64,000 nt of DNA from Thermoplasmata archaeon. Lineage in GTDB: Archaea; Thermoplasmatota; Thermoplasmata; GCA-020350865. How positions within the stretch are numbered: position 1 is the stretch's first letter; every line of letters begins with the position of its first letter. The notes below the pieces were generated by a model. The model was not told where the DNA came from and did no database searches. It saw only the letters and a list, made by a program, of their open reading frames with translations. The stretch is from NCBI GenBank assembly GCA_020348445.1, contig CP070751.1:4569709-4633708 (forward strand), read 5' to 3'. A program made the translations under genes and the position numbers. Shown here piece after piece: positions 43,849-64,000 of this stretch.

Positions 43849-44848
43849 TGTAAAGTAAACAGACATCGGTAACATTCTTTTTCATTTTAACCCGTTAGGG
43901 TCTGAGGAATCGGGATGGGATGCTTAGACCCCGAAACGAGGCGATTAATGGTAAACGCAGTCAGAAATGGACATAAGGTAGGAGAAGTTGCAGAGATATT
44001 CGATGTTAGTAGGAAAACCGTATGGAAATGGTGTAAACGGACTATGAAGGTGGGTAGACCAGTCTACAAGGATCTACCAAAACGTCCGCATACAATTCAT
44101 AAAAGGGTAACAGAAGCCGCAGAAGTAGCTATAATAGTTCTACGGGAGGCGTTCAACTGGGGTACACAGCGAATTAAGCTCAATCTTGAACGCCCTCCCT
44201 CATATATTCGTACCCTGCTGGAAAGTACTACAGGGAAAGAATGGAAACCTATTATATTGAGCAGACAGGCCATTAACAATGTCTTGAAGAAGCATGATAT
44301 AAACGGTAGTCCTTACAAGAGCAAGAGGGACTGGAACTATTTTAGAGCTTCGAGACCTGACGAACTCTGGCAGATCGATATCAGGGGACCGATAAGGATA
44401 GGTAAAATAAGAGGTTATGTCCTTGTCATACTGGATGACTATTCCAGATATCTGATCTGGTGTAAATTCTATGAGAGGATTACCACCAAGGTGGTTCTCT
44501 CTGCGTTGTCTTACCTGGCTGTAACAAGGAAGAGAAAGCCACAAAAGATACTTGTGGATAATGGAACCCAATTTAAGATATCTTTTGAGAATGGCTGTAA
44601 AGATATGGAAATCGAGGTCGAACACACCCCTCCCTATTACCCCCAATGCAAGGGTAAGGTAGAACGGGTAATTCGGACCTTTAATGAGGAATTCCTCAGG
44701 GTTTGCAGTGTATTTGATAACTCCCATGCCCTGATGCCTGAGTTCCAGGCATGGTATAATGATTCTCGTTACCATATGGGCATATCTGATTTTCCAAATG
44801 AACTATATAACAACCATTTCGATGTTACCTATGTCCCTTGACATTACA
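43849..44848 (+). mobile_element. IS481-family insertion sequence, 1000 bp, 27-bp imperfect terminal inverted repeats
   Basis: Left end TGTAAAGTAAACAGACATCGGTAACAT versus reverse complement of right end TGTAATGTCAAGGGACATAGGTAACAT (22/27 identical); TGT...ACA termini. Confidence 0.88.
43915..44841 (+). CDS. IS481-family DDE transposase (HTH + integrase core)
   Basis: HTH (VAEIFDVSRKTVWKW), WQIDIRG, LDDYSR, VDNGTQF, KVERVIRT; the DDE triad appears intact. Confidence 0.9.
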   Translation: MGCLDPETRRLMVNAVRNGHKVGEVAEIFDVSRKTVWKWCKRTMKVGRPVYKDLPKRPHTIHKRVTEAAEVAIIVLREAFNWGTQRIKLNLERPPSYIRTLLESTTGKEWKPIILSRQAINNVLKKHDINGSPYKSKRDWNYFRASRPDELWQIDIRGPIRIGKIRGYVLVILDDYSRYLIWCKFYERITTKVVLSALSYLAVTRKRKPQKILVDNGTQFKISFENGCKDMEIEVEHTPPYYPQCKGKVERVIRTFNEEFLRVCSVFDNSHALMPEFQAWYNDSRYHMGISDFPNELYNNHFDVTYVP

Positions 44849-46628: not shown

Positions 46629-46890
46629 GGAACTTGAGATTGAGATTAAAGATCAATGGAAATAATGATCATTCTCCCCCTAAGGATTTGAATATGTCTT
46701 GGCCATGCAGCGGGATTGGTATTGTAATTTCTTATTATCGAGCTCATATTCAATTCACAATATACTGACGAAAAATTTTAAATAGTTGTCAAAGTGAGTT
46801 CCAATATTCTTATTAATGTACCTAACCAATGAAATATGCGTACAACACAGATAGATCTAATCCGAATTAGAAGGTAGGAGATGATATAAT

Positions 46891-47556
46891 ATGAATGAAA
46901 ACAAAAGGAAAATTAAGCCAGGCCTAAAAAGTCTGGGTAGTGGGCACAGGACACTGGGAAAAACCATTGGAATAATTGTTTTGATTACCGCTGCTCTGCT
47001 GATGGTATCCGGAAGTTCCATTGCCATGTTTATCGAAGTGCAGAGCTGGGAGACCGACATGGGTGAGTGGACAAAGGATTACGACCTGCCGGAGGATCCG
47101 AATCTTATGGGAGAAGCAAGTGCAGGTAAACTCGTTTACTGGCACATTGAAAGGACAGACAAAATTGCCTATAAGGGCAAGTGGTGCCTGGAGCTTGCAA
47201 TAGACGGCAGGCAGGACGACGGCACCGTGTGGATGGAGAAAATTGTCCCAGCAAATCCAAAGGCACCAGTCACCGTTGTATTCATCGATTTCTATGTGTA
47301 CAGCAAATGGAAATCGGCCGCTAACCAATGGAAGGTCCTAGCCTACGCGGGTGTAGAGGATCCCGATAGGGAGAACGACTTCACAATAGTGGGCTATACC
47401 GAACCAGGAGTGGGCTGGTTCCGATACAGGCTTGTTGAAAGAATCTGGACCCACGGAAGTGATGATATCTACGTGGCCTTCGGCATTTCAGTGCTCTGGG
47501 AAAGCTACCGCGAATATCATTTCGACCACGTGATTGTGCGCACAACAGGAATTTAG
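46891..47556 (+). CDS. Secreted/membrane-anchored hypothetical protein, probably beta-sandwich
   Basis: Basic N-terminus plus hydrophobic helix; Trp-rich mature part; SD AGGTAGGAG. Confidence 0.6.
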   Translation: MNENKRKIKPGLKSLGSGHRTLGKTIGIIVLITAALLMVSGSSIAMFIEVQSWETDMGEWTKDYDLPEDPNLMGEASAGKLVYWHIERTDKIAYKGKWCLELAIDGRQDDGTVWMEKIVPANPKAPVTVVFIDFYVYSKWKSAANQWKVLAYAGVEDPDRENDFTIVGYTEPGVGWFRYRLVERIWTHGSDDIYVAFGISVLWESYREYHFDHVIVRTTGI

Positions 47557-47597
47557 AGAGGATTAACGCCCTAAAAAAACCTTAAGGAGGGATAAAA

Positions 47598-50411
47598 ATC
47601 GTAGAAGATGAAGAAGAACTATCTGAAGATCTAGAATCTGAGGAGGAAGAGGTGGAATGGGGAGAGAACGAAGAGGATCTTGGGGAGGAGCCTGAAGAAA
47701 TTGAGGAATGGGAAGGCTCTGAAGAAGAAATTGAGGAGGAACCAAGACGAATGGAAATGGAAGAAAAGGAAAAAGGTTCCAAATTCCCAACAATGCTGGT
47801 GCTCGCCATTCTACTAGGCGCGATTGCCGGTGCAATAGCAGGCCTTGCAGCTTCTTCCCTATTTCAGGACGAGGACGAAGACACCCCATTTACCTATGCA
47901 GATGATAAGGTGGGTATCGGGACAGATGATCCTGTTACTGCGCTGGATGTGGATGGAGTGATCACTGCCGAAGGAGGGAATTCTGATGAGTGGAACACCG
48001 CCTACAGCTGGGGGGATCATTCCACAGCAGGATACCTTACGGACTACACAGAGACTGATCCTGTGTATGGAGGAAGTGCAGCTTCGGAAATCTCAAGCGG
48101 AGATATCACCAACTGGGACACAGCATATGCTTGGGGTAATCATTCCACAGCAGGATACATGACTGATTATACAGAAACTGACCCATTGTACGGAGGAAGT
48201 GTAGCATCGGGGATCTCAACAGGAGATATCACCAAATGGGATATGGCCTATGGATGGGGTGATCATTCAGATGAGGGATATCTTACAAGCTATTCAGAGA
48301 CCGATCCAGTTTATGCTTGGAGTGTAGCAGCAGGGATCACAAACGGCGATATCACCGACTGGGATACAGCTTATGGTTGGGGTGACCACTCATCAGTAGG
48401 ATATCTTACGAGCTATACAGAGTCAGATCCAGTATATGGTGTGAGTGTGGCTTCGGGAATCACAAGCGGGAACATTATCAACTGGGATACGGCCTATGGC
48501 TGGGGGGATCATTCTTTAGCTGGTTACTTGGTTAGCGAAAGTGACCCGCAAGTTGGGGTGAACGCACTCAATTATACATCCAAATGGAACGGCAATGAGC
48601 TTGTAACCGGTACGATATACGATAACGGCAATATAGGAATCGGGACAACTAATCCAGAGGCAAAATTGGATGTGGAAGTCAGTTCTCTTGGAGCCGCAAC
48701 CATAGGTTCCAGCGGTAATTCAGCTACCGGGGATTATGCAATCGCCATGGGATACAATACAAGTGCCAGCGGGGATTATTCAACTGCAGTGGGGCGGTTC
48801 TCGACCGCAAGTGGGAGTACTTCAACCTCGATAGGATATGAATCAACCGCTAGCGGAGGAGGTTCAACTGCGATTGGTATGTGGGCAACCGCCAGCGGGG
48901 AGTATTCAACCGCGATTGGATTGAGGGCAACTGCCTATGGGTGGTATTCAACCTCCATCGGGAGAGGAACAAACGCCAGCGGATTATATTCTACCGCCAG
49001 AGGTTACAATACCATTGCCGGCGGATGGGGCTCAACCGCCATGGGGTGGGAAACGACCGCCTTCGGTGATTATTCAACCACCATGGGACATAATACAAAT
49101 GCCAGTGGAATTGGATCAACTGCCATGGGGAATGGTACAACTGCCAGCGGAGATTCTTCAACCGCCATGGGTTACAATACAAACGCCAGCGGGGTTAGAT
49201 CAACTGCGATGGGGCAGAAAACGACCGCTATAGGCTGGTATTCTACCTCGATGGGGGCTGTTACAACCGCCAGTGGTTTAACCTCAACCGCCATGGGATA
49301 TGGAACAACCGCCAGTGCACCCTATTCAATTGCTATGGGATTAAGCACAATTGCTAGTGGATACGCCTCAACCTCCATGGGAAGAGATACAATAGCCTTT
49401 GGGAGTTATTCAACCGCCATCGGGAAAGGGACGAATGCCAGTGGGTATGCCTCAGCTGCAATGGGGCGTGATACAACCGCCTTTGGGGATTCTTCGATTG
49501 CAATGGGTTACAATACAAATGCCATAGAAGATTTTTCAACTGCAATGGGATGGGGGACAACCGCCAGTGAACAAGCCTCAACTGCAATGGGTGATGGAAC
49601 AAACGCCAGTGGATTTGCTTCAACCGCAATGGGGAGTGGGACACTAGCCAGCGGATGGATTTCAACTGCAATGGGTGCTGGTGCAGTCGCCAGCGGGGAA
49701 TCTTCAACTGCTATGGGGTATTATACAAATGCCAGTGGAATCAGATCAACGGCCATGGGGATAATAACAACCGCCAGCGGTGGGGGCTCAACCGCAATGG
49801 GAGGTGGTACAATTGCCAGCGGATTATATTCAACAGCCATGGGGGTATCTACAATCGCCAGCGGGGATTATTCAACTGCCATGGGTGATGGAACAACCGC
49901 TATCGGGAATTGGTCAACAGCCATGGGGTGGGGAACGACGGCCAGCGGGCGTTACTCAACCGCAATGGGGCGATGGACAACAGCCAGCGGAAATTGGTCA
50001 ACCGCCATGGGAGAATTATCAACCGCAAGCGGGAGTATTTCAACAGCCATGGGCTCGTTTTCAACCGCCAGCGGAATGAGTTCAACTGCTATGGGGCGGT
50101 TTACAACAGCCAGTGGGAATTACTCAACAGCAATGGGCCACTCGATAAATGCCAGTGGAAATTACAGTTTCGGAATTGGTTTGGATTCCACTCAAAGTAC
50201 AATAACCCAGGACAACACAATGGCCATCATGGGCGGCAATATCGGCATCGGAACTCTAACCCCACAAAGAAGCCTTCATGTCAATGACACAATGCGACTC
50301 GAACCAAGAACCTCGGCACCATCAAACCCAATGGAAGGGGATATATATTACGATGGAGTCTTACACTCGCTCATGGTCTATGATGGAACAGTATGGCAGG
50401 CTTGCTTCTAA
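47598..50411 (+). CDS. N-terminally anchored fibre/adhesin with 41-aa ETDP repeats and 34 YadA/Hep_Hag-like 14-aa repeats
   Basis: Acidic N-tail, single TM, repeats, short C-terminal domain. The frame is open back to ATC 47598 (7 nt after AGGAGG); the track's start is GTG 47652. Confidence 0.8.
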   Translation: MVEDEEELSEDLESEEEEVEWGENEEDLGEEPEEIEEWEGSEEEIEEEPRRMEMEEKEKGSKFPTMLVLAILLGAIAGAIAGLAASSLFQDEDEDTPFTYADDKVGIGTDDPVTALDVDGVITAEGGNSDEWNTAYSWGDHSTAGYLTDYTETDPVYGGSAASEISSGDITNWDTAYAWGNHSTAGYMTDYTETDPLYGGSVASGISTGDITKWDMAYGWGDHSDEGYLTSYSETDPVYAWSVAAGITNGDITDWDTAYGWGDHSSVGYLTSYTESDPVYGVSVASGITSGNIINWDTAYGWGDHSLAGYLVSESDPQVGVNALNYTSKWNGNELVTGTIYDNGNIGIGTTNPEAKLDVEVSSLGAATIGSSGNSATGDYAIAMGYNTSASGDYSTAVGRFSTASGSTSTSIGYESTASGGGSTAIGMWATASGEYSTAIGLRATAYGWYSTSIGRGTNASGLYSTARGYNTIAGGWGSTAMGWETTAFGDYSTTMGHNTNASGIGSTAMGNGTTASGDSSTAMGYNTNASGVRSTAMGQKTTAIGWYSTSMGAVTTASGLTSTAMGYGTTASAPYSIAMGLSTIASGYASTSMGRDTIAFGSYSTAIGKGTNASGYASAAMGRDTTAFGDSSIAMGYNTNAIEDFSTAMGWGTTASEQASTAMGDGTNASGFASTAMGSGTLASGWISTAMGAGAVASGESSTAMGYYTNASGIRSTAMGIITTASGGGSTAMGGGTIASGLYSTAMGVSTIASGDYSTAMGDGTTAIGNWSTAMGWGTTASGRYSTAMGRWTTASGNWSTAMGELSTASGSISTAMGSFSTASGMSSTAMGRFTTASGNYSTAMGHSINASGNYSFGIGLDSTQSTITQDNTMAIMGGNIGIGTLTPQRSLHVNDTMRLEPRTSAPSNPMEGDIYYDGVLHSLMVYDGTVWQACF
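48051..48542 (+). repeat. Four tandem 123-bp (41-aa) coding repeats
   Basis: E(T/S)DP starts at 48051, 48174, 48297, 48420 (then 48537); consensus ETDPVYGxSxASxIxxGDITxWDTAYGWGDHSxxGYLTxYT. Confidence 0.9.
48735..50162 (+). repeat. 34 tandem 42-bp (14-aa) YadA-head-like repeats
   Basis: Consensus xSTAMGxxTxASGx; counted manually. Confidence 0.9.
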
Positions 50412-50420
50412 ATAAATCTC

Positions 50421-50447
50421 CCCCTTTCTCTCTTTTTTTTATTTTTA
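50421..50447 (+). terminator. Candidate archaeal oligo-T terminator
   Basis: CCCCTTTTCTCTCTTTTTTTTATTTTT immediately after the fibre gene stop. Confidence 0.35.
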
Positions 50448-50480
50448 TAATTAACATATTTTGTAGGCTGATTATTTAAT

Positions 50481-50764
50481 AACGCTCATAATTCGTATAC
50501 AATCTGCGGGAGTTAACGCTCACATTTCGTATACGAAGTAACGCTCACAGTTCGTAAAGGATTTGGGGGTCAACTCTCATATTTCGTAAATGGTTTTTCA
50601 GTTATAACGCTCATATTTTGTATACGAACTGTGGGAGTTGGTGAATCTGAACATGGTGAAGATTTTTGGTGCACTGGCTCCGCCCTTGAAAATCCCGGAA
50701 AATTAGTGCTTTGTGGCCGCGCAGGGGGGGTATTACGATCCGTGGGAGGTGGGGGTGGTTTTGG
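50481..50764 (+). repeat. Intergenic repeat family, copy A (five AACGCTC-type units plus conserved G-rich block)
   Basis: Units start at 50481, 50515, 50540, 50572, 50606; then GCACTGGCT (50671)..AATCCCGG..CCGCGCAGGGG..GTGGGGGTGGTTTT. Confidence 0.85.
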
Positions 50765-50924
50765 TTGCAGAGGCAGAGCGGTCACCTCATAAAAGTAATA
50801 CGAATACGCATTAATAATTTTGGGGGATTAAACGGGTGGAAATCCTTTGTAAAGAACTGGACCTTTTAAACTAAAAGATTCTTAATTATATATGAGAAAA
50901 AAAACAAAATATATTTTCTTATCT

Positions 50925-52169
50925 CTATGATTTAGATATCATTTCTATAAGATCTTTTGGAGTTAAAACCTCAACTTCTTCAGTTTGTACAGGAACCCGG
51001 GAGATCAATGCTTTTTTACAAATGAACTTTTCAGTATTTGTAATGAATTTACTAACATCGCTTTTTTTTACCTTTTTTCTCCATTTGACCTCTCCAATAA
51101 ATATCGGTTTTCTTCGCTTTGTAATAATGATGTCTATATCAAAATCTTTTGTCATATGGTATCTGAATGTACCATCAAGAAGTTCAGCCATAAGTTCGCC
51201 TAAGAAAAATTGAATGTGAATCGGTGCGCGCTCATCAAACACTTCTTTGATTAAGGATGGTTTGTCAGCTTCTATATCATATTTCTCATCAAGGTAATAA
51301 TAGAGCTCCATGATCTTCGATTTAACTGAATAATAATTTCCCCGCTTTTCATAAAGCGGTATTCTTTCTATGAGATCCATATTCTCCATAATCCTTACAT
51401 ATGGCCTCACCAAAGAGGGATTATTAGCTTTTATTAGCTTCTTTGAAAATAGCTGGTCGCTAACCTTTTTCAATGTGTTTTTTCCATTGGCAATTGATCT
51501 TAGAACACCCTCATATACCTCAGATAAAAACCTGTCTTCTGCTAGGAATGTTTCCCCAATAAGAGCGGGAATCGCGTTTTTTGAAAATTCCATAACGTTC
51601 AATATTGTTTTTTCAGGAGTTTTATCTATATAACGTAATGCCCAAGGATCTCGGAGGTATGGCGATAGTGCAAGAGCATCCTCATGGCTAATTTCTTTTG
51701 AAAGAGAAGTAAAAATGTCACTGGGCGAAAGCACTGAAAGCTTAATCTCAGATAAAAGTCCCAGAAGAGGGGACTTTTTTGAGGTAATTTCCTTTGCAAC
51801 ATGCATGGATGAACCAAGGAGTATGAGTTTTCCGTTAGGATAGCACATTTGAAGAGAATCAACAAAATCGTCAGGAAGTCTTTGGAACTCGTCTACTACG
51901 ACTACCTTATCATTCTTTAGTTCATTGATCACCATTTCAGTAACCTGACTGTAATCGTCTGTTCTTTTTAGGGGTTCACCTGTAATAAGTGCACCGCCCC
52001 CTCTTTTCACAAGTATATAAACATCATGTTTGATGAAGTTCCTAACAAGATATGTCTTTCCAACTTTTCTCCTGCCGTATATCAACATCCAGCCCTTCGA
52101 TTTCTTTACATTCTTCACTTCCTTACGAGGAACCGTGATTAGGGTAACCATGGTTACGGGAATGGCCAT
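50925..52169 (-). CDS. Archaeal AAA ATPase with C-terminal DUF234/PD-(D/E)xK nuclease-like domain
   Basis: IYGRRKVGKT Walker A, VVDEFQ Walker B, LLGS, DIDII...FIGEVKW. Confidence 0.88.
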   Translation of the reverse strand: MAIPVTMVTLITVPRKEVKNVKKSKGWMLIYGRRKVGKTYLVRNFIKHDVYILVKRGGGALITGEPLKRTDDYSQVTEMVINELKNDKVVVVDEFQRLPDDFVDSLQMCYPNGKLILLGSSMHVAKEITSKKSPLLGLLSEIKLSVLSPSDIFTSLSKEISHEDALALSPYLRDPWALRYIDKTPEKTILNVMEFSKNAIPALIGETFLAEDRFLSEVYEGVLRSIANGKNTLKKVSDQLFSKKLIKANNPSLVRPYVRIMENMDLIERIPLYEKRGNYYSVKSKIMELYYYLDEKYDIEADKPSLIKEVFDERAPIHIQFFLGELMAELLDGTFRYHMTKDFDIDIIITKRRKPIFIGEVKWRKKVKKSDVSKFITNTEKFICKKALISRVPVQTEEVEVLTPKDLIEMISKS

Positions 52170-52214
52170 TCCCCTATAAATAGGTTACTGTATCAAATCA
52201 TGATTTTAGTGGTC

Positions 52215-52650
52215 TAGCACTCGTATTTCGTATGCCATTTTCGTGCGATATCTCACGGATTTGGCACATGGAATTCATAATCCAACGCTCATATCTCGTA
52301 TACCATCTGTGCGAGTTAACGCTCGTAATTGGTATACAATGTAACGCTCGCAGTTGGTAAAGGATTTGGGTGTCAACGCTCATATTTGGTATACCATTTG
52401 CGGGAGTTGGGAGGGGAAGTGAAATTAGTGGGCTTTGAGGTACTGGCTATCTTCATATTAAGTCAGGAAAAAGGCGGTTTTGGTGGCACACAGATGGGGT
52501 ATGTGAGTTGATTTTGAAGGGAGTTACTGCCAATCGTGGGAAGTGGATTCGGTTGAGCGACCCAGAAAGGGGTATGTGTGTCGGAAATCTGGGGATTAGT
52601 GCCAGATTCGTGAGATGGGGGTGGTTTTTGGGCCCGGGAAAGGGGGGTGA
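52215..52650 (+). repeat. Intergenic repeat family, copy B
   Basis: AACGCTC at 52284, 52318, 52343, 52375; GGGAGTTG..TACTGGCT; GGGGTATGTGTG..GCCAGATTCGTGAG..GGGGGTGGTTTTTG. Confidence 0.85.
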
Positions 52651-52814
52651 GGGAACTGCGTGGAAGAGTTGACAGTGTACAAGGTGGGTTGGTTAAGTTA
52701 AAAAAGGTGGAGGAAAAAGGTATAGGCTCTGAGAAAAAAATAGGTTCAGACCCCCGATTAAATCTAAATATTCCCATCCAATTTCTAATAAAATAGAAAA
52801 AAAAGATAAAGGTT

Positions 52815-53759
52815 TTAGGTCGGGTCTATCACTCTTATGGTATCGCTTCCCTCGAAGGGCATCCCGCAGAATAACTCTCCCGAAATTGTCACTGTATGTT
52901 CTCCTGGCCCATAGAGAATCTCGATATCAGAGCGGTCGAACTTAAGGAGTCGCTCCAATACACCATTACCGTTTTCATCGACACAGTAGGAATCCTCTGA
53001 CTTCGCCCAGCCGTACTTCGGATCCCGCACAGGTGAGATGGCTCCATCCCATAGGATTGTGTTCGCGTTAATCTGGTTGCACTGGTACTCCTCCGGCAGC
53101 TCAACCGTCGCGATAATCCACCGGCCCTTGCTCTTCATGTTGATTGTGTTCGGATCGCTGCCAGGCTTGATGTCCACAATTGCCTCCAAGGGACAAGGTA
53201 TGTCGTACTCAACGATATATCCCGGAATCCCATACATATTGTTGTAGCTTGGAACATCGTTCCATGCGCCCAGAGGTGAACCGCCGATTTGGCGTCCATC
53301 CAGGTGAATAGCATCTTCTCCTGGAGGTGCATTGTTTGGCTCATTTGTCATCCAGTTGGTATAAACAAAAGGCTCACCAGTCACCCATTCCCACCCACCA
53401 TCAGGCTCGGGACTCCCAGGAGGTTGAAATCCACCTATCCAATAGCCAAGTCCACCCGGGATAATTGCTTGCGGAAATGTGGTCACGATAAAGTCTTGTT
53501 CTTGTTGTGATGTGATGGTGACAAGATGTCCTTGGTAACCCATGAAGATTAGACTTTCTGCAGCAACTTTGGCATCTTGCCAGATTATACCCCCTGGTAC
53601 AGATACCGCCTCGTAGTAGTGACAGTTTGCAGGATTCTGGACTGGACTAGATATGGGAGAGGCCTGACTACTTGCCGCAACCACAGTAAATAAGCCCATG
53701 CCAATGAGTATTGCCACAACAATTATTACACTGTTTTTATGTATTCTCTTCATTTCCAT
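52815..53759 (-). CDS. Secreted C-type lectin domain protein with C-terminal DIKPGS domain
   Basis: Signal peptide; HYYEAV..W.DAK.AA..GHLVTITS..EQDF..YWIGG..W.WVTGE...YTNW...EPNN..WND. Confidence 0.8.
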   Translation of the reverse strand: MEMKRIHKNSVIIVVAILIGMGLFTVVAASSQASPISSPVQNPANCHYYEAVSVPGGIIWQDAKVAAESLIFMGYQGHLVTITSQQEQDFIVTTFPQAIIPGGLGYWIGGFQPPGSPEPDGGWEWVTGEPFVYTNWMTNEPNNAPPGEDAIHLDGRQIGGSPLGAWNDVPSYNNMYGIPGYIVEYDIPCPLEAIVDIKPGSDPNTINMKSKGRWIIATVELPEEYQCNQINANTILWDGAISPVRDPKYGWAKSEDSYCVDENGNGVLERLLKFDRSDIEILYGPGEHTVTISGELFCGMPFEGSDTIRVIDPT

Positions 53760-53967
53760 TCACCTCCTCCCTTTCTTAGGGTCTATCGGTATTTCTATCA
53801 TCGCGCCCCACCTCGGTGCTATCCTCCCCATTTTTGTTTCATAAAGCCCCCTCGCCGCTCTTCCCTCTGTTTTTTCCTCTGAGGGATAGTAGTTGATGTA
53901 CTTATAATCATTTATAATTTTGGTTTAATCAATTTAAAGTTTCAATTTTTCCGCGCTTGGTTTTTGA

Positions 53968-54023
53968 GCGCGCAAAAAGGGGCGTGTCGGTGGAGGAATG
54001 GGCAGTCAGGGAAACGGTGGAGG
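53968..54023 (+). repeat. 56-bp direct repeat, left of hicBA
   Basis: GCGCGCAAAAAGGGGCGTGTCGGTGGAGGAATGGGCAGTCAGGGAAACGGTGGAGG, identical to 54652..54707; a diverged third copy starts at 60571. Confidence 0.92.
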
Positions 54024-54107
54024 TGGGGGTTGAGGTGAGATGGGTCCGGATTTTGAAAAAATAAGGAAAAAGTATAAAAGCAAGGATACTCCTTAATATC
54101 TCTGGAA

Positions 54108-54341
54108 GTGACCGTTATGGAAGGCAAGTTTACTGCTGTGTTTGAAAAGGATGGGGAATGGTGGATTGGATACGTTGAAGAATTACCTGGAGCAAATACC
54201 CAGGGCAAGACATTAGATGAGGCTCGTGAGAATCTAAAGGAAGCCGTAGCTTTAGTTATAGAAGCAAATATAGAACTAACAAAACAAGAAATTGAGGGAA
54301 AGGAAGTCATTAGAGAGGAGCTATCGGTGGCTACTCAATGA
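54108..54341 (+). CDS. hicB: HicB-family antitoxin
   Basis: FTAVFEKDGEWWIGYVEELPGANTQGKTLDEARENLKEA. Confidence 0.9.
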   Translation: MTVMEGKFTAVFEKDGEWWIGYVEELPGANTQGKTLDEARENLKEAVALVIEANIELTKQEIEGKEVIREELSVATQ

Positions 54342-54523
54342 AGCGGCGAGTCTTAATAAAGCATCTTAAAAAAAATAGGTGCAAATTTTTGCGTGAAGGT
54401 AAAAAACATACAATATATTTTAATCCAAAATTGAGAAAGGTATCAACGATTCCGCGGCATACAGAAATATCTGATAAACTTGCCAGAAAGATTTGTAAGG
54501 ATCTTGGTGTGCCTCCTCTGTAA
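54338..54523 (+). CDS. hicA: HicA-family mRNA interferase toxin
   Basis: LIKHLKKN.C.FLREG.KHTIY.NP....TIPRHTEI; ATGA overlap with hicB. Confidence 0.9.
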   Translation: MKRRVLIKHLKKNRCKFLREGKKHTIYFNPKLRKVSTIPRHTEISDKLARKICKDLGVPPL

Positions 54524-54651
54524 TTTTTATTATAGCAATGTCCCAAGATACTAAAAAAAATCCTTTATGGATATATATCATATTTTTTAAGAGGAAAATT
54601 CCATCTGCCACATATTCAATTTATTTTACGGTGGAAGGAGCGGTTTTTCGG

Positions 54652-55063
54652 GCGCGCAAAAAGGGGCGTGTCGGTGGAGGAATGGGCAGTCAGGGAAACG
54701 GTGGAGGAGGGTTACGAGTAGGGTTGGATTTTTGGGTAATAGATCAGGCAATAACGCTCGTATTTGGTATACCATCTGTGCGAGTTAACGCTCACGATTG
54801 GTATACAATGTAACGCTCGCAGTTGGGAAAGGATTTGGGGGTCAACTCCCGTATTTGGGAAATGGTTTTCGGGATCTAGCGCTCATATTTGGTATACCAT
54901 ATGCAGGAGTTGTGGGATCAGGACCTGAAGATGGATTTTGGTGCACTGGCTCTGCCCCTGAAAATCCCGGAAAATTGTGCATTTTAAACCGCGCAGAGGG
55001 GGTATGTGCGTTGGAAATTGGAAGGATTTTACCAATCGTGAGAGGTGGGGGTGGTTTTTGGGG
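54652..55063 (+). repeat. Intergenic repeat family, copy C (56-bp repeat, five units, conserved block)
   Basis: 56-bp repeat at 54652..54707; units at 54753, 54787, 54812, 54844, 54878; GCACTGGCT at 54943. Confidence 0.88.
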
Positions 55064-55287
55064 TTAGAGGCCAGAACCTATGTGAAGACATAAAAGGTAT
55101 TAATAAAATCTTGTGTTAAAAAAAATGTGAAAATCACAAAACACATTAACAATAGAGATATTTTTTACCTTTACCATGAAATTGTTTATATATGTCATTT
55201 TGAATCCTGGTTATTAATATATAGAATTGAATCTGAATTAATATTAAACATACAATAATTACCACAGTCAAAATTATTGGTATTGTT

Positions 55288-56961
55288 ATGGAATCAGAAA
55301 ACATAATAGCTCAAGAGAAACCCGAACAATTAGTAGTGGTTGAACCGGGTGTGGGCACTCAAGAACAGATGATGAAGGACCCAAAATGGAATGGTATTCC
55401 ACCGGTAGGTAACCGACCAATTGATGATAAATGGAAATTTCTATTGATGATATTAGCCATATTTATCGTAAAGATAATAATTTGGGGTATCTATAGATAT
55501 TCTACCGGTACACTGGACATCTTTACCAATCCAGATTCCGGTCGGGAGAATACATATTGGGCCGGAATTGTTGCAAAGCCAGTTTTGCAACTGGCACCGG
55601 TCTTTGTTCTATGGATATATCTTTTTGGTGAGAAAGGCTTACCGTTTCGGCTAACTAGAAAACACTTGTTTTCCTCAATCATATTCGGTTGTATTCTCGG
55701 TTTTGTATATTACTTTGTGGCAACAGGTGTCATGATCGGAGTTTTCGAAACAACTGGTCAGGGAACGGACTTTCATTTTGTTGCCGGTTGGGACGATGCA
55801 GGTTGGATGCTGATTATCGCCATGATGTTCTCATATATGATCGCAACAGGTCCCACGGAAGAGATATTTTCCAGAGGTGTACTCCAAGACCAGACTGCAC
55901 GGGCATTTTCGTTGAAATTTGCCATCATGTTTTCAGCCGTACTATTCGCGGCCGGACATCTACCTATCTCAATTTTGGTCTATCATTTAAGCTTCATGAC
56001 AATTGTCTGGTACATGATCATCTTGTTTGTAATGGGTTGTTTCTTTTCAATTTTATACCAATGGTCACGTAATATCGTATTTCCAGCGATCATTCACGGC
56101 CTTTGGGACTGGTACTTATCATTATATGCATTACGTGGTGCATACTCACCAACATTTCTGGAAGATTATAATGTAAATTTTGGTATAGTTGATTTTGTCA
56201 GTACATTAATCACTTTATCGATCATGCTGCCATTATTCTATATTGTATATCTAGTCTGGTGGAAACATGATGAGCCATTAAAGGAGGGACCACTAGCAAG
56301 TATCGTAAAACGTATCGAGAAGATCAAGTATACACACCAGATTCGAAATTATGACAGGGGTTGGTGGCCCAAGGGCAATCCGATTTTAGTCACTGCAGCA
56401 ATTGTAGGTCTCTTTTGTCTAGCAAGTATACCCGTTGCAGCTTTGATCGGAACTGATGATCCTTCTAAGTTTGCAGATAGAGTAATGGGTGGAGAGGAAA
56501 AAACTGTGATTGTATATGATAATGGAACATTATCTGATTCTGGAACACTTGATGAGAACAGTGGAACTGAAGTTCCCATTGAGTTTTATGATAAATATAT
56601 TATAAGCATAAATCTAAGTCTAACCTGGACAGACGAATCTTCATCGTTCTTTCAAGGTACCAATGAACCCGATCATTTTACGATCCAGTTAATTGACCCT
56701 GAAGGTGAAGTTCTGGGAGAAGATGAGGGTGATTCGGGGACTTTGGCGATATTATGGTCACAATCCGATTCTGAGGAAATATTGTATAATGGGACTTTTA
56801 CTGTTAATGTTGAATTGGGCACAGCTGGAGACGATTTTGGGCCGTTTGGTTTACGCTCGAATGAAGACACTTCTAATGATTATTCTTTGAATATAGAATT
56901 TAATAGTTATTCCCTCCAGAAAGGCTCAGGCGATGAGGCCGATGTCCGCTGGCGCTCATAA
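55288..56961 (+). CDS. CPBP/Abi (CAAX protease-like) intramembrane metalloprotease with C-terminal extracellular domain
   Basis: TEEIFSRG (EExxxR), FAAGH (FxxxH), IIHGLWD (HxxxD). Confidence 0.88.
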   Translation: MESENIIAQEKPEQLVVVEPGVGTQEQMMKDPKWNGIPPVGNRPIDDKWKFLLMILAIFIVKIIIWGIYRYSTGTLDIFTNPDSGRENTYWAGIVAKPVLQLAPVFVLWIYLFGEKGLPFRLTRKHLFSSIIFGCILGFVYYFVATGVMIGVFETTGQGTDFHFVAGWDDAGWMLIIAMMFSYMIATGPTEEIFSRGVLQDQTARAFSLKFAIMFSAVLFAAGHLPISILVYHLSFMTIVWYMIILFVMGCFFSILYQWSRNIVFPAIIHGLWDWYLSLYALRGAYSPTFLEDYNVNFGIVDFVSTLITLSIMLPLFYIVYLVWWKHDEPLKEGPLASIVKRIEKIKYTHQIRNYDRGWWPKGNPILVTAAIVGLFCLASIPVAALIGTDDPSKFADRVMGGEEKTVIVYDNGTLSDSGTLDENSGTEVPIEFYDKYIISINLSLTWTDESSSFFQGTNEPDHFTIQLIDPEGEVLGEDEGDSGTLAILWSQSDSEEILYNGTFTVNVELGTAGDDFGPFGLRSNEDTSNDYSLNIEFNSYSLQKGSGDEADVRWRS

Positions 56962-57005
56962 CCCGAACCCACAACACAAAACTTGGGGTGGTGTATGTTT
57001 CAATC

Positions 57006-57236
57006 TATCTCACGGATTTGACACGCCATCTGCGGGGGTTAACGCTCGGATTTGGCATGCCAACTGCGGGAGTTGAGAGTATTTGAAGTTTGAGACATTT
57101 TAGTACACTGGCTAGGTCCCTTTAATCCCGGGAAATATGCTGTTTTTCAGCCGCGCAGAGGGGGTGGGTGTGGTTGAAAACTGTTGGGTTTTACCAATCG
57201 TGAGTGGTGGGGGGGGTTTTGCTTGGCAAAAGGGGC
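57006..57236 (+). repeat. Intergenic repeat family, copy D
   Basis: TATCTCACGGATTTG..GCCATCTGCGGGGGTT-AACGCTCGGATTTGG..CTGCGGGAGTTG; ACACTGGCT..AATCCCGG..CCGCGCAGAGGGGG..TTTTACCAATCGTGAG. Confidence 0.82.
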
Positions 57237-57655
57237 AGGTAGCGAATCTAGGGAAGATCTGGTAGGTGATGTTGGGGTGGGGGTGGATTTGACAGCCTTA
57301 CAGGCGGTAAAAGGGGTGGAAGCTTTGTGAAATAAAAGGTAAGAATTGAAGTGAGGTGAGAAAATATACATGTCGGTCTTGGTACTCCTCCAGTTTTAAA
57401 TCAAGATAAAAAAAATATAATTAAAAGTTAAAAATATATTCAATTTATTACATTAAAATATTACCATTTCGAAAGAAATAAATATCCAGAACTCATTTGC
57501 GATTTCGATTGGAGGGAGACTAAGGAGTAGGTGGAATAAGATAAGCGAGGACTTGAATTTATGAAAGTCATGAACTAGGGTTGACGGTCTCTTTATCTTT
57601 TTTCACAGTTCCTTTGATCCAATCTGTAGAAGGAATAGACGGGGGGAGATAGAAT

Positions 57656-60142
57656 ATGAGGAAGAAAATAACAATAGGAGTAGTATTGGCACTGGTTGCC
57701 ATGGTTTTTGCAACTGTGCCTAAGTGTGCTAGCGGAGAATTTATCGGAAATGTAAAAATAAATGCGGATGGTACTATAACACCAGCCGAGGCACCAATAT
57801 CCCGAAACGGAGAAATATATACAGTGACCGGTGATATTACCGACGGGACAATATTTATCTATAGGGCCGGAATAACATTGGATGGTAACGGTTTTACTGT
57901 CTCCGGTCCTCCGTCCGGGTCTTATCCTGTGTGTATCTATGTGTTCGGCTCCCTTGGTGCAAACGATGTTACTATTACGAATTTCAACCTCGTGGGGGGC
58001 CACCAGGGTGTATTTTTAGCCGGATCAAGTGGCAGTACAATAGTGGACAACACAATTAACTCGGTAAGCCACTATGGAGTATATATAGCCGGATCTGACA
58101 GCAATACGGTATCAGGAAATACTATCCAGGCTAGTGCTGTGATCGGTATCCATATGGATACTGGTGCGGGGAATACCATAACCGGTAACACGGTTTCAAC
58201 AAGCGGGAGTTATGGCATTTCGTTATATGGCGGTACAAACAACCAAGTAACCCAAAATTCGGTTACATTGAGCGGTTGGGCCGGCATATACGTCGGGGAA
58301 CAGTCCAGCGGCAATACAATCAATGGGAATACTGTTACGGACAATACTGGGAGAGGAATCTTCATAGGATCCACCGGAGGTAATACGGTGAGCGGGAACA
58401 CGGTTTCGGGCAGCCATTTCGGTATCTACTTGTCCTGGTCCAGCGGCAACACAGTAAGTGGTAACACAATTACAAACAGTGGAACTGGTATCTTTCTAGG
58501 CGCCTCCAGTAATAATAATATTAACGGAAATATTATTTCCAGTATTATTGCCAGTGGTAAATATGCTATCACTTTGGACGGGGGTAGCAATAGTAATATA
58601 GTTAGCGGCAACACAATAACGAACCAATTCTGGGGTATCACGATCGGTCATTCCATAAATAATGTTGTCAATTATAATCCAATTTCAATTTGTGCTCGAG
58701 GCATTATACTAAGTTATGCTGATAACAATGAAATCAGTGAAAACACCCTTTCGAATTGTGGAGAGAGTATTTACTTAGGGACGTCCAGCATTAATGATGT
58801 TAGCAGAAATATTATTTGCGGCGGTAATTATGCCATCAAAGTGGAATGGTTCAGTAATAATAACATAGTTAGTGATAACTCAGTAACGGCTAACTTAGGA
58901 GGTATTTCAGTCGGTCATTCCGTAAATAATGTTGTCAATTATAACACAGTTTCAAATTGTGGAACTGGTATTGGTCTAGGAAATGCTGAAAACAATGAAA
59001 TCAGTGAGAACACCCTTTCGGATTGTGGAAAGGGAATCTACGCAGGCTCCTCCCCTAATAATTATGTCAGCGGAAATGTTATTTCCAGCGGTAATTATGC
59101 TCTCACTTTGGACTGGGGCAGCAATAGCAACATAGTTAGTGGCAACTTGATAACAGCCTATCTCTTCGGTATCGGGGTCGGCCGTTCCACAAATAATGTT
59201 GTCAATGACAACCAAGTATCAAATTGTGGATGGGGTATTTCACTTGGCAATGCTGAAAATAATGAAATCAGCGAGAACTCGGTTTCGAGTTGCTCGAATG
59301 GAATCCACGTAAGTTCCTCAGTTGACAATATTATCTGTTGGAACATGGTCTCGGGGGGAACTTATGGAATTGTTCTAGTTGGGAATAGTAACAGCAACAA
59401 ACTTTTTGAAAACACCGTCTCGAGTAATAATTACGGTGTACATCTGCATCTGTCCAATGTCAACTTGATTTTCCATAATAGTTTTATCGAAAACGCAATA
59501 CAGTTTAACAACATTGAATCGACAAATACTTGGGATAATGGCTATCCATCTGGTGGCAACTATTGGAGCGATTACACAGGTATCGATGAGATGAGCGGCC
59601 CAAACCAAGACATCCCGGGGAGTGACGAAATAGGAGATACACCATATATCATCGACCCCGATAATCAAGACAACTATCCTCTCATAGATCCTTGGGGACC
59701 TAAATATATGATAATAGAAGTTATCTACGAAATTGAAGAAATCATAGAAGAAAATCCAAACACACCCCTCGCAGATAAGATGGAGGATGCGCTGGCCAAG
59801 GTGTACACCGCCCTTGAGGAGCTCACGAAATCACCACCCGACAATCAGGCGGCAATGGGAAATATCGAAGGCGCAGTGGGAGATATAGAAGCAGCAGTGA
59901 ATGACGGACTTCTCGATAAAGATAAGGGTATAGAACTCATGGATAAGCTCATAGAAGTTGCAAGACAGTTGGCAGTGGAAGCAATCGAAGAGGCTATTGA
60001 GCAGGGAGGAGATCCAGATAAGATTCAGGAGGCGCAACAGTTACTGGCTGAAGGTGACCTGCTAAGAGAGGCAGGACAATACAAAGATGCTGTTGCCAAA
60101 TATAAGGATGCACTTGCAAAGGCAGAAGGCGCTATATCCTGA
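57656..60142 (+). CDS. Secreted parallel beta-helix (NosD/CASH) protein with helical C-terminal domain
   Basis: Signal peptide, many 22-23-aa GIxLxxSxxNxIxxN rungs, NTWDNGYPSGGNYWSDYTG..IGDTPY..DNYPL. Confidence 0.88.
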   Translation: MRKKITIGVVLALVAMVFATVPKCASGEFIGNVKINADGTITPAEAPISRNGEIYTVTGDITDGTIFIYRAGITLDGNGFTVSGPPSGSYPVCIYVFGSLGANDVTITNFNLVGGHQGVFLAGSSGSTIVDNTINSVSHYGVYIAGSDSNTVSGNTIQASAVIGIHMDTGAGNTITGNTVSTSGSYGISLYGGTNNQVTQNSVTLSGWAGIYVGEQSSGNTINGNTVTDNTGRGIFIGSTGGNTVSGNTVSGSHFGIYLSWSSGNTVSGNTITNSGTGIFLGASSNNNINGNIISSIIASGKYAITLDGGSNSNIVSGNTITNQFWGITIGHSINNVVNYNPISICARGIILSYADNNEISENTLSNCGESIYLGTSSINDVSRNIICGGNYAIKVEWFSNNNIVSDNSVTANLGGISVGHSVNNVVNYNTVSNCGTGIGLGNAENNEISENTLSDCGKGIYAGSSPNNYVSGNVISSGNYALTLDWGSNSNIVSGNLITAYLFGIGVGRSTNNVVNDNQVSNCGWGISLGNAENNEISENSVSSCSNGIHVSSSVDNIICWNMVSGGTYGIVLVGNSNSNKLFENTVSSNNYGVHLHLSNVNLIFHNSFIENAIQFNNIESTNTWDNGYPSGGNYWSDYTGIDEMSGPNQDIPGSDEIGDTPYIIDPDNQDNYPLIDPWGPKYMIIEVIYEIEEIIEENPNTPLADKMEDALAKVYTALEELTKSPPDNQAAMGNIEGAVGDIEAAVNDGLLDKDKGIELMDKLIEVARQLAVEAIEEAIEQGGDPDKIQEAQQLLAEGDLLREAGQYKDAVAKYKDALAKAEGAIS
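58529..59341 (+). repeat. Three higher-order 267-bp (89-aa) repeats inside the beta-helix
   Basis: Units start at 58529, 58808, 59075 and end at 59341; the first unit has an extra 12-bp duplication (ATTATTTCCAGT ATTATTGCCAGT). Confidence 0.8.
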
Positions 60143-60283
60143 AAATTGTAATTGATTTGGTCGGAAACATTGGCACCTTAATTGTGGAATAAAAGACCAA
60201 GTGATTAAGAACATCACTTCAATCCTCTCTTTTATTTATTTTTCTATTTTTATACTATTAAGATTTAAATCTAATTTTCTTTC

Positions 60284-60945
60284 TATCTCACGGATTTAGC
60301 ATGCCAATGCACATCAGTTGAATCATCAATTAGAAGCTGTGCATCTATATGTAAATCATCTAAGTATAGTGTCATATCAATACAATAATTCACATGCCAT
60401 CTGCGGGAGTTGTTGGATTATGCTTTGGAGCTAGATTCTGATGCACTGGCTGAGCCCTTTTAATCCCGGGATTTGGGGACTTTTCTGGATGCGCAGGTGG
60501 GGTATGTGTGATGGAATTTGATGGGTTTTTGCCAGATTCGTGAGGTGGGGTGGATTTTGGGGTTTGTTGGGCGCGCAAAAAGGGGCGTGTCGGTGGATTG
60601 GGAGGTCAGGGGAAACGGTGGATGTGGGTTACGGGAATGGTTGGATTCTCAGATAGTTGAGCAGGCTTTATCTCACGGATTTGAATTCCGTTTTCCTGGG
60701 GTTACCCCTCGGATTCCGGATCCACAGTGCACGTTAGTTCAGGTAACAATTACATTCGTGCACGTGAGTTTAAATTACCTGTGGATTTTCGGGCTTACCC
60801 CCCGGATTTCGGATCCGGTTTGAGGGGGTTAGCACTCGAATTTCGGATAGGGCCAGTGGATTTAGCTGTGTGTTTTCTTGGAGGATTTTTACGGGATTCG
60901 TGAGGTGGGTGGGGTTTTGCTTGGCAAAAGGGGTGGAAGAAGTGC
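60284..60945 (+). repeat. Intergenic repeat family, copy E (composite, most diverged)
   Basis: TATCTCACGGATTT at ~60284 and ~60669; CTGCGGGAGTTG..GCACTGGCT (60443); GCGCGCAAAAAGGGGCGTGTCGGTGGA at 60571; GGGTTACCCCTCGGATTCCGG-type units; second GATTCGTGAGGTGGG..TTTTGCTTGGCAAAAGGGG. Confidence 0.8.
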
Positions 60946-61169
60946 TTCCCCAATTAAAAAGTGAAAATCAGGAGAATGAAATTGTTTTTTAAAATGGGAT
61001 AAAAAGGGCAAAGCTTTTTGGGAAATATGGAATGGTTTTGTCAGACCTCAATTATCAATAAATCAGTAACCAAAAATCTTTAAAATAACAAATAGTATAA
61101 TGTTGGAAGGTATCCTGATAATATTGTGTAACGAAGAATCATAACAATCTAAAGAGGGAGTTTGATAAA

Positions 61170-63998: not shown

Positions 63999-64000
63999 GT

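What the first reader, a model, noticed from the sequence alone, without database searches (positions are those of the whole stretch)
50481..60945. Six consecutive accessory loci are each delimited by one co-oriented modular intergenic repeat family (cassette-array-like)
Seen: every intergenic region from the fibre gene to the FN3 gene carries family members (50481, 52215, 53968, 54652, 57006, 60284). All read in the same direction on the + strand although the genes between them point both ways. Shared blocks: AACGCTC/GTATAC units, GGGAGTTG, CACTGGCT, AATCCCGG, CCGCGCAG-GGGG, (ACCAAT/CAGATT)CGTGAG-GTGGGG. I saw no copy in the first 50 kb. The delimited genes (ATPase-DUF234, C-type lectin, HicBA, CPBP protease, NosD proteins) are typical accessory cargo. 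Established: integron arrays alternate cargo with recombination sites and often carry TA cassettes. Inference: an undescribed gene-capture or shuffling array, or a locally amplified MITE/ncRNA. No recombinase lies in the window, and the elements (about 250-650 bp) are longer than typical attC sites.
Basis: partly seen in the sequence, partly recalled or inferred. Interest (0 to 1): 0.85.

Follow-up and report, generated by a model that had tools for sequence, protein, structure and literature searches.

The report
Nuclease-linked junction repeats between archaeal gene cassettes
In an uncultured sediment archaeon, a same-direction mosaic DNA repeat fills every gap between unrelated accessory genes; it is not an integron site, but its core is the conserved flank of a many-copy transposase-like nuclease gene, which gives this integron-like layout its first candidate enzyme.

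Summary
All six intergenic gaps from 50480 to 60935 carry members of one repeat family, all on the + strand, with none in the first 50 kb. The array runs on past the window for six more gaps.

The family has two units built from shared pieces. "ABCD" is about 300 nt: tandem 36-nt imperfect palindromes followed by three oriented motifs. "E" is about 100 nt, G-rich and not palindromic.

It is confined to one Thermoplasmata genus and sits on only 12 of 354 contigs. The "genome" is a MAG joined with N spacers. Every contig with two or more copies is internally co-oriented.

It is not an integron. There is no IntI, E does not fold, and no single crossover point exists.

New here: ABCD is the conserved 5' flank of a multi-copy gene of about 322 aa. 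The gene combines an IS1/IS1595-type zinc-ribbon N-terminus with an intact Cas4/RecB-family nuclease. The repeat's A end lies 32-48 nt before the ATG at every readable upstream of an intact gene copy that I checked.

In the sister array, cassettes are 83-92% identical between species whose core genes are 66-77% identical. Their order and flanking modules differ.

Best reading (about 45%): these are recombination seams served by this nuclease. A REP/RAYT-like selfish repeat is the main rival.

This scan had already noted the same family elsewhere in this genome.

The parts
50480..50765 (+). Junction element W1 (ABCD). A palindromic units at 50480-50640, motifs B-C-D at 50664-50762. It starts 70 nt after the fibre gene stop.
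52215..52640 (+). Junction element W2 (ABCD plus an extra C/D copy). A units at 52215-52409, BCD at 52434-52554, second D at 52554-52628. The A end lies 46 nt from the start of the divergent ATPase gene.
53946..54055 (+). Junction element W3. E core at 53968-54023 with a short D-like tail, directly upstream of hicB.
54108..54523 (+). hicB-hicA toxin-antitoxin cassette, bracketed by a perfect 56-bp direct repeat of the E core (53968-54023 and 54652-54707).
54630..55066 (+). Junction element W4, the fullest copy (E-A-B-C-D). E at 54652-54745, A units at 54752-54912, BCD at 54934-55058.
56975..57245 (+). Junction element W5. It begins with a remnant of the nuclease-gene promoter flank (GATTGAAACAT on the minus strand, 56985-57005). 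A units follow at 57006-57075 and BCD at 57097-57220.
60284..60935 (+). Junction element W6 (split A unit, then B-C-D-E-A-D). The A unit at 60284-60412 is interrupted by about 95 nt. BCD at 60434-60558, E at 60571-60665, variant A units at 60669-60857, D at 60878-60919.
47652..50411 (+). YadA-head-repeat fibre gene, the last gene before the first element.
50925..52169 (-). Cargo: AAA_14-type ATPase.
52815..53759 (-). Cargo: C-type-lectin-domain protein.
55288..56961 (+). Cargo: Rce1/CPBP-family membrane protease.
57656..60142 (+). Cargo: NosD/beta-helix surface protein.
61170..64000 (+). Cargo: NosD/beta-helix protein with fn3 repeats. It runs off the window and ends at about window 64619, followed by the next E.
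43849..44848 (+). IS481-like insertion sequence (rve transposase, 25-bp TGT...ACA inverted ends). It sits exactly where synteny with the congener G001 ends and so marks the start of the species-specific island. Its ends do not resemble the repeat.

Best explanation
The six elements are gene-less copies of a genus-specific mosaic repeat. They mark the seams between independently acquired accessory-gene units in a species-specific island.

The ABCD core is the conserved 5' flank of a multi-copy gene. It consists of tandem 36-nt imperfect palindromes next to the promoter, followed by three oriented G-rich motifs. The gene encodes a transposase-type zinc-ribbon/HTH DNA-binding head fused to an intact Cas4/RecB-family nuclease.

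Inferred mechanism: the nuclease binds the palindromic A units and breaks DNA at or near the repeats. Repair by recombination between co-oriented repeat copies then inserts, deletes or swaps the genes lying between them. Copies may be in the same array, in another array, or on incoming DNA. Direct orientation is what such events both produce and tolerate.

Shown: the repeat, its polarity, its restriction to one genus, its fixed linkage to the nuclease gene, the intact catalytic motifs, and cassette sharing and reordering between species.

Inferred: that the nuclease acts on the repeats, and that this is what moves the cassettes.
For: Repeat and polarity:
- The repeat is real and oriented.
- All 8 G000 contigs with two or more sites are internally co-oriented, as is every such locus examined from four congeners and four further metagenome contigs.

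Linkage to the nuclease gene:
- The A end lies 32-48 nt before the ATG of the ~322-aa gene at every readable upstream of an intact copy that I checked. I checked 10 across G000, G001, G003 and JGI/NCBI contigs. The one exception (L052) has a Fic gene between repeat and nuclease.
- Homology among copies spans repeat plus gene and stops at the stop codon.

The protein:
- IS1/IS1595 zinc-binding N-terminus (NCBIfam).
- Invariant CxxC..CxxC, E243, GHID264, D277-x-K279 and Q289..Y293.
- AF2 model pLDDT 90.7, nearest folds Cas4 SSO0001, AddAB, ACE1, Exo5, RecE.
- Multi-copy, with truncated and stop-bearing copies, mostly on 1-10 kb contigs, and labelled 'transposase-like' by JGI.
- A 42%-identical paralogue carries its own variant of the unit upstream.

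Window-specific traces:
- Element W5 still carries the nuclease promoter remnant.
- hicBA is bracketed by a perfect 56-bp repeat of the E core.

Cassette exchange:
- Sister-array cassettes are 83-92% identical in congeners, against 66-77% for core genes.
- They end within about 15-65 nt of the repeats, lie in another order in G003:C337, and are flanked by other modules.
- The island begins where synteny with G001 ends.
Against: - No nuclease gene lies on the window's contig or on the sister-array contig.
- The E unit has no gene partner.
- No binding or cleavage has been shown.
- Shared cassettes break just outside the repeats, not inside them, and cargo abuts different modules at different seams. 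A precise site-specific reaction is therefore unlikely.
- In G001 and G003 some shared genes lie with no repeat nearby.
- Only one seam (hicBA) shows a recent duplication.
- A single A unit is a weak hairpin, and its pairing is almost equal on both strands.
- Everything rests on fragmented MAGs. Repeats break the assemblies, so copy numbers and array ends are uncertain.
Confidence: 0.45

Rival explanations
1. Selfish repeat of REP/BIME-RAYT or MITE type. The nuclease gene with its flank is an IS-like selfish unit. The gene-less ABCD and E copies are non-autonomous or decayed copies that pile up in dispensable intergenic gaps of accessory islands. They mark seams only because insertion is tolerated there, and they play no part in moving the cargo.
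For: - Palindromic units with a half-unit (D) at the far end give the element inverted-repeat-like termini.
- The gene is multi-copy with many broken copies, and assemblies break at it.
- Sub-families of the repeat are shared between species.
- Similarity among copies is not higher between neighbours than between arrays.
- Some shared genes occur without repeats in congeners.
Against: - Plain MITE insertion predicts mixed orientation, yet every multi-copy contig is co-oriented.
- No target-site duplications were seen, and the nuclease gene has no defined second end.
- Copies are few (about 40 sites) and clustered rather than genome-wide.
- The IS481-like IS ends and the Y1 transposase loci do not match the units.
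Confidence: 0.28
2. Expression module. ABCD is a portable promoter/operator block, possibly with a divergently transcribed non-coding RNA that ends in the T-runs of D. It was carried along when genes were duplicated or captured. The A palindromes are operators for the nuclease's own DNA-binding head or for another regulator.
For: - A TATA-like box (GATTGAAATA) lies between the A units and the ATG of the nuclease gene.
- In the window array the ATPase gene and the HEPN-MNT pair start 36-46 nt from an A end in the same divergent layout.
- Each module ends in a T4-T6 run.
- The central dyad changes while staying palindromic.
Against: - No conserved RNA fold was found in BCD.
- Whole-element fold energy equals that of shuffles.
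- Rfam gave nothing.
- Many copies sit after gene 3' ends, where a promoter would fire antisense.
- This reading does not explain array-wide co-orientation or the E unit.
Confidence: 0.17
3. Atypical integron or CALIN. The repeats are divergent attC sites recombined by an integron integrase encoded elsewhere.
For: - Co-oriented sites alternate with TA-rich cargo.
- A units begin with AAC and end with GTT.
- Integrons and CALINs are reported in Archaea (PMC9668308).
Against: - No intact tyrosine recombinase was found in the MAG.
- E does not fold on either strand (z about 0).
- A units are 36 nt and tandem.
- Elements are 110-650 nt and modular.
- Cargo includes proteins over 1000 aa, multi-gene units and genes with their own promoters.
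Confidence: 0.03
4. Relics of old tandem segmental duplications of one gene-plus-spacer unit, followed by gene replacement. The repeat itself would have no present activity.
For: Direct orientation and the cyclic module order are what tandem duplication leaves behind.
Against: - Cargo units are unrelated apart from the surface-protein paralogues.
- The repeats are conserved across species at or above core-gene identity, up to 91%.
- The 56-bp perfect repeat at hicBA is recent.
Confidence: 0.05

Closest known systems
Sedentary chromosomal integrons and CALINs (e.g. Vibrio VCR arrays; archaeal examples in Ghaly et al. 2022, PMC9668308)
   Same: Long rows of unrelated accessory genes, rich in toxin-antitoxin pairs, separated by one co-oriented, lineage-specific repeat. 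Cassettes are shared and reordered between related species.
   Different: No IntI, no attC fold and no single crossover point. The repeats are mosaic and reach 650 nt. Cargo has its own promoters, points either way, and includes surface proteins over 1000 aa. The candidate enzyme is a nuclease, not a tyrosine recombinase.
REP/BIME elements with their RAYT gene (REPtrons) in Enterobacteria and Pseudomonas; also the pneumococcal BOX mosaic repeats
   Same: Short imperfect palindromes combine with linking motifs into mosaic extragenic elements. Many gene-less copies exist, plus a transposase-derived gene flanked by its own cognate palindromes. The element type is specific to the lineage.
   Different: - The enzyme is a Cas4/RecB-family PD-(D/E)XK nuclease with an IS1-type zinc ribbon, not an HUH Y1 protein.
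- Units are tandem and direct rather than alternating.
- There are tens of copies, confined to accessory islands and strictly co-oriented, not hundreds spread over the genome.
- The host is an archaeon.
Rpn (YhgA-like, Transposase_31) recombination-promoting nucleases of E. coli (PMC5350276)
   Same: Multi-copy proteins labelled transposase-like whose catalytic domain is a PD-(D/E)XK nuclease. They are proposed to promote recombination without being classical transposases.
   Different: Rpn proteins have no reported cognate repeat or cassette array. No sequence relationship was detected here (Pfam hit PDDEXK_1, not PF04754). The domain order differs.
Yeast mating-type cassettes (HO endonuclease with HML/HMR/MAT flanked by shared homology blocks)
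   Same: As a working analogy only: a site-specific nuclease cuts beside a variable cassette lying between co-oriented shared blocks, and repair copies in another cassette.
   Different: There is no homology of any part, and the analogy is untested here.

Membership tests
Integron / CALIN | IntI-type tyrosine recombinase next to the array, or at least in the genome | tested here: not met
   PF00589 gives only two fragments (51 and 37 of 172 positions), both on other contigs. None occurs among ORFs from window 36.9 kb to the contig end. The MAG is 82% complete, so absence is not proven.
Integron / CALIN | attC: 57-141 nt imperfect inverted repeat that folds as single-stranded DNA (R''-L''/L'-R') | tested here: not met
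   E copies fold no better than shuffles on either strand (z from -0.8 to +0.5). The whole element gives z about -0.4. A units are only 36 nt. The attC covariance model of IntegronFinder was not available.
Integron / CALIN | Mostly promoterless, single-ORF, co-oriented cassettes joined at one fixed crossover point | tested here: not met
   Genes point both ways. There are 100-400 nt AT-rich upstream regions, multi-gene units and ORFs over 1000 aa. Cargo abuts D, E or A modules at different seams.
REP/BIME with RAYT | Short imperfect palindromic units forming mosaic extragenic elements | tested here: met
   36-nt unit model: 75 hits (both strands counted, about 58 distinct units), 86% of cells paired, covariation above all 500 shuffles and above slid controls. 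The element has a mosaic of modules.
REP/BIME with RAYT | Cognate HUH Y1 (RAYT) gene flanked by the units | tested here: not met
   Five Y1_Tnp loci were found, none near any unit. The gene that is flanked by the units is a Cas4/RecB-family nuclease.
REP/BIME with RAYT | Hundreds of copies dispersed genome-wide, with units in alternating orientation | tested here: not met
   About 40 sites on 12 of 354 contigs. Units are tandem and direct with a 34-36 nt period, and every multi-copy contig is co-oriented.
MITE (non-autonomous DDE transposon) | Terminal inverted repeats matching an autonomous IS, plus target-site duplications | tested here: inconclusive
   The A left arm and the D right arm are inverted copies of one motif. 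However, the IS481-like IS ends do not match them. No duplications were recognised, and no filled/empty orthologous pair was found.
IS200/IS605-derived palindrome-associated elements | Subterminal hairpins shared with a resident TnpA/TnpB element | tested here: not met
   No A units lie near the Y1_Tnp loci. No credible TnpB was found.
Known RNA families (Rfam 15) | Match to a curated covariance model | tested here: not met
   No match at E <= 1 over 46000-64000.

The most novel reading that the evidence does not exclude
An integrase-free cassette-exchange platform in Archaea. A family of nucleases with a transposase-type DNA-binding head and a Cas4/RecB-type catalytic domain would recognise their own matched palindromic units. 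They would make breaks at co-oriented junction repeats, and repair of those breaks would capture, excise and shuffle accessory genes between arrays and between species. Each nuclease sub-family would have its own unit variant and hence its own set of arrays.
Probability: 0.3. Interest if true: 0.9.

Novelty: new variant of a known kind. Interest (0 to 1): 0.72.

Why it matters
Integrons are the only well-understood machines that stack unrelated genes into ordered, exchangeable rows, and they rely on one enzyme family.

Here the same genome architecture appears in an archaeal genus with none of the integron parts. For the first time it comes with a concrete candidate enzyme, and that enzyme belongs to a different class.

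If the nuclease acts on these repeats, this would be a second, independent solution to gene capture. It would help explain how these large-genome sediment Thermoplasmata build their stock of defence, toxin-antitoxin and cell-surface genes.

If it does not, the system is still the first archaeal counterpart of the REP/RAYT arrangement, built around a nuclease.

Either way the claim is now testable with one protein and one 36-nt DNA site.

Tried and rejected
- **Rfam at E <= 1:** nothing.
- **attC-like folding** of E and of a single A unit as single-stranded DNA on both strands: no better than shuffles.
- **Whole-element RNA fold:** z about -0.4 and -0.6.
- **RNAalifold on 27 BCD copies from five species:** no consensus pairs.
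- **G-quadruplex motifs:** only 3-4 per array, too few to be a feature of every element.
- **GC-skew/replichore test of orientation:** void, because the 'genome' is concatenated contigs.
- **Strand preference of A-unit pairing:** 10.4 versus 9.9 pairs of 12, not decisive.
- **E-core pattern scans** of the GTDB genome collection and the JGI metagenome collection: only chance hits. Records of the window's own genome, or of one very near it, may be left out of these scans.
- **IS481-like IS as the autonomous partner:** its ends do not match.
- **Y1 transposases, TnpB, tyrosine and serine recombinases as neighbours of the arrays:** none.
- **Paralogous cargo between the two E-bearing arrays:** only the surface proteins.
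- **Nucleotide matches of the window's cargo in four congeners:** essentially none. Reordering could therefore be shown only for the sister array.
- **A loose regex module map:** too noisy and discarded.
- **The 133-aa gene beside the element on contig 169:** 86-89% identical in congeners but lies there without repeats, so it does not count as evidence for repeat-bounded transfer.
Full report
**1. What is in the window**

The region 47.6-64 kb encodes, in order:
- a YadA-head-repeat fibre (+)
- an AAA_14 ATPase (-)
- a C-type-lectin protein (-)
- HicB and HicA (+)
- an Rce1/CPBP protease (+)
- a NosD/beta-helix protein (+)
- a NosD/fn3 protein (+)

Every gap between them carries members of one repeat family, all reading on the + strand (sequences). 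Iterated nhmmer models of three sub-regions recover the window copies at E 1e-8 to 1e-38. They give no hit in the first 50 kb of the window.

**2. Anatomy**

The family is a mosaic of modules.
- **A** is a run of one to five 34-36-nt imperfect palindromes with consensus TAACGCTCGTATTTGGTATACCATCTGCGGGAGTTA. The central dyad changes while staying palindromic: GGTATACC, GGCATGCC, GGATCC, GAATTC.
- **B, C and D** are oriented motifs: GCACTGGCT; GCAGAGGGGGTATGTG; and CCAATCGTGAG followed by a G-run and a T-run.
- **E** is a sharply bounded, G-rich, non-palindromic unit of about 100 nt. It starts GGGCGCGCAAAAAGGGGCGTGTCGGTGGA (alignment of 20 copies).

The modules share primitives. D is the right arm of an A unit plus a G-tail. 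The tail of E is D-like. The start of E resembles the small hairpin that follows D in other copies.

Modules always appear in the cyclic order E-A-B-C-D, and each gap holds a contiguous part of that cycle.

A covariance model of the 36-nt unit finds 75 hits (both strands counted, about 58 distinct units). In these, 86% of cells are paired, and covariation exceeds all 500 shuffles and all slid controls. Even so, a single unit is a weak hairpin, and pairing is nearly equal on both strands. A double-stranded palindromic binding site is therefore as likely as a hairpin.

BCD has no consensus RNA fold. Whole elements fold no better than shuffles. Rfam gives nothing.

**3. A caveat about the genome**

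The 'single 5.16-Mb contig' is 354 MAG contigs joined by 100-N spacers. Comparisons of strand or position between contigs are meaningless, and my GC-skew test is void.

- The window lies on a 115-kb contig. The array runs on to 4.2 kb from that contig's end, with six more sites past the window.
- Several copies sit at contig ends or on contigs of 1.4-1.7 kb. Repeats break the assembly, so copy numbers are lower bounds.

**4. Distribution**

- ABCD occurs in all four congeneric species genomes searched and in none of 36 other genomes of the class.
- E occurs only in G000 and on one contig of G004. In G000 there are 20 copies on two contigs: this one and a sister array at 2.31-2.36 Mb.
- Within G000 the family lies on 12 of 354 contigs. 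All eight contigs with two or more sites are internally co-oriented.
- The same holds for every multi-copy locus fetched from the congeners and for the four further metagenome contigs that carry two or more copies.
- Element orientation is independent of flanking gene orientation: 22 co-directional against 16 opposite upstream genes.

**5. Not an integron**

- The MAG has only two tyrosine-recombinase fragments, on other contigs. Its one serine recombinase lies on another contig, far from any array.
- No recombinase lies between window 36.9 kb and the contig end.
- E does not fold as single-stranded DNA.
- Cargo abuts D, E or A at different seams, so there is no common crossover point.
- Cargo genes have their own upstream regions, point either way, and reach 1149 aa.

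The Y1 transposase loci, the weak TnpB-like hits and the IS481-like IS at 43849-44848 show no relation to the units.

**6. The new link: a nuclease gene**

Following isolated copies, I found that a gene of about 322 aa always starts 32-48 nt from the A end of an ABCD element, on the opposite strand.

- This holds at every readable upstream of an intact copy that I checked: 10 copies. They are three in G000, two in G001, three in G003, and two on JGI/NCBI contigs L054 and L053. On a further JGI contig (L047) the called start overlaps the A units, so the true distance is uncertain.
- In one further contig (L052) a Fic gene sits between the two.
- Homology among copies covers element plus gene and stops at the stop codon, at 70-82% nucleotide identity.
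- A TATA-like box lies between the last A unit and the ATG.

The protein has these features:
- an IS1/IS1595-type zinc-binding N-terminus followed by a helical region (NCBIfam)
- a C-terminal domain with invariant E243, GHID264, D277-x-K279 and Q289..Y293, the RecB/Cas4 nuclease motifs
- an AF2 model at pLDDT 90.7, whose best fold matches are Cas4 SSO0001, the AddAB nuclease domains, ACE1, Exo5 and RecE

The family comprises more than 100 clusters, mostly on contigs of 1-10 kb, and JGI labels them 'transposase-like protein'. Each genome holds several copies, including truncated and stop-bearing ones.

A 42%-identical paralogue in G000 has its own variant of the unit upstream (ACACCGGATTTCGTATA) and also sits at contig ends.

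In the window, element W5 still carries the promoter remnant of this gene (GATTGAAACAT). The ATPase gene starts 46 nt from the A end of W2 in the same divergent layout.

No copy of the nuclease gene lies on the window's contig or on the sister-array contig.

**7. Cassette behaviour**

- Synteny with G001 holds up to window 43739 and ends at the IS. Nothing from there to the contig end has a counterpart in the next 18 kb of G001.
- The window's cargo is essentially absent from the four congeners at the DNA level.
- Core genes of these species are 66-77% identical. Several cassettes of the sister array recur in congeners at 83-92%.
- One is a MazE-like pair, 91% identical over 753 bp. It is bounded by E in G000 but by A units in G003.
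- Another, a 167-aa gene, is flanked by E on both sides in G000. In G003 it is flanked by D-type and C-D modules, and in G001 no repeat lies on the one flank that can be read. The left break point is the same in all three.
- In G003:C337 two of these cassettes lie in the reverse order relative to G000.
- In the window, hicBA is bracketed by a perfect 56-bp repeat of the E core, while other E copies differ by 5-20%.

**8. Reading**

The repeat is real, polar and lineage-specific, and it is tied to a selfish-looking nuclease gene. The genes between copies are exchanged between species as discrete units.

I think it most likely (about 45%) that the nuclease recognises the A units and that break repair between co-oriented repeats moves the cargo. 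This is an integron-like outcome reached by a different route.

The main rival (about 28%) is that the repeats are REP/RAYT-like or MITE-like passengers that simply accumulate in tolerant gaps. A regulatory or RNA role (about 17%) is also open. Integron membership is rejected on three tested features.

**9. Relation to earlier notes of this scan**

The same family was already flagged in other windows of this genome (e1-5775373, e1-5722298, e1-5722326) and in this window (e1-5775813, e1-5775939). Those notes called it an integron-like array with an unknown enzyme.

I re-derived the layout, the reordering, the hicBA repeat and the palindromes independently. I add three things: the MAG caveat, the shared-primitive anatomy, and the nuclease linkage.

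Noticed in passing
G000 whole 'genome' (353 runs of 100 N; window contig = G000:C1:4537709-4652959): The assembly offered as one contig is 354 MAG contigs concatenated with 100-N spacers. The first 254 are sorted by length and the last 100 are not. Any analysis that uses long-range position, strand or GC skew on this record is invalid.
   Followed up: yes
L022:6880-8535; L054:5463-7115; L053:10001-12007: The nuclease gene is often followed by a conserved 72-aa gene (68-96% identical across loci). A ~128-aa gene follows; it is 84% identical between L022 and L054, and the L054 copy has retropepsin-like aspartyl-protease Pfam hits. The L053 copy is unrelated to those two. This may be a two- or three-gene module.
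   Followed up: partly
G000:C1:2110913-2111947, 2135994-2136467, 3681010-3681230: A second sub-family of the nuclease (42% identity) has its own upstream run of ACACCGGATTTCGTATA-type units. Copies sit at contig ends, and one is a pseudogene with three stops. It could serve another of the repeat families this scan noted in the genome.
   Followed up: partly
window 43849-44848; G000:C1:2361308-2361405 and 2549252-2549350: IS481-like IS (rve transposase, 25-bp TGT..ACA inverted ends). One complete copy lies 5.6 kb before the window array, at the synteny break. Its left end closes the sister-array contig 2.4 kb after that array's last repeat, and its right end opens another contig.
   Followed up: partly
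window 57351-57615: The ~265-nt region upstream of the NosD gene recurs at 85-87% identity upstream of two other genes in the sister array (G000 2338978-2339241 and 2326913-2327132). It is a shared leader or promoter block distinct from the junction repeat.
   Followed up: no
window 53759-53949: The lectin gene has a leader that is G-rich on its own strand and ends in a strong GGAGGTGA ribosome-binding site. Part of it (62 nt) is 94% identical in G002:C82, and similar pieces recur in G001 and G003.
   Followed up: no
window 60284-60412: One A unit is split by a ~95-nt insert between its two arms. The same split unit is 85-93% identical at three places in G001.
   Followed up: no
window 50157-50440: The last 284 nt of the fibre gene are 85% identical to G003:C13, against 71% for the rest of the gene. 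This suggests a separately exchanged C-terminal module.
   Followed up: no
G000 genome-wide (e.g. 4640228-4640483, L001:7520-7775): A ~250-nt 3' coding block of the NosD-type surface proteins recurs about 60 times in the MAG at 68-90% identity. It looks like a shared C-terminal anchor domain of a very large surface-protein family.
   Followed up: no
G000 whole MAG: No intact tyrosine recombinase (XerA-type included) was detected with PF00589, although all 14 control genomes matched. The MAG is 82% complete, so this may be a gap in the assembly.
   Followed up: no
window 44919-46628: This 569-aa protein combines CARDB/PKD surface domains with C-terminal tandem winged-helix DNA-binding domains. 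It sits just before the fibre gene and is of the type another note of this scan (e1-5775311) described elsewhere in this genome.
   Followed up: no
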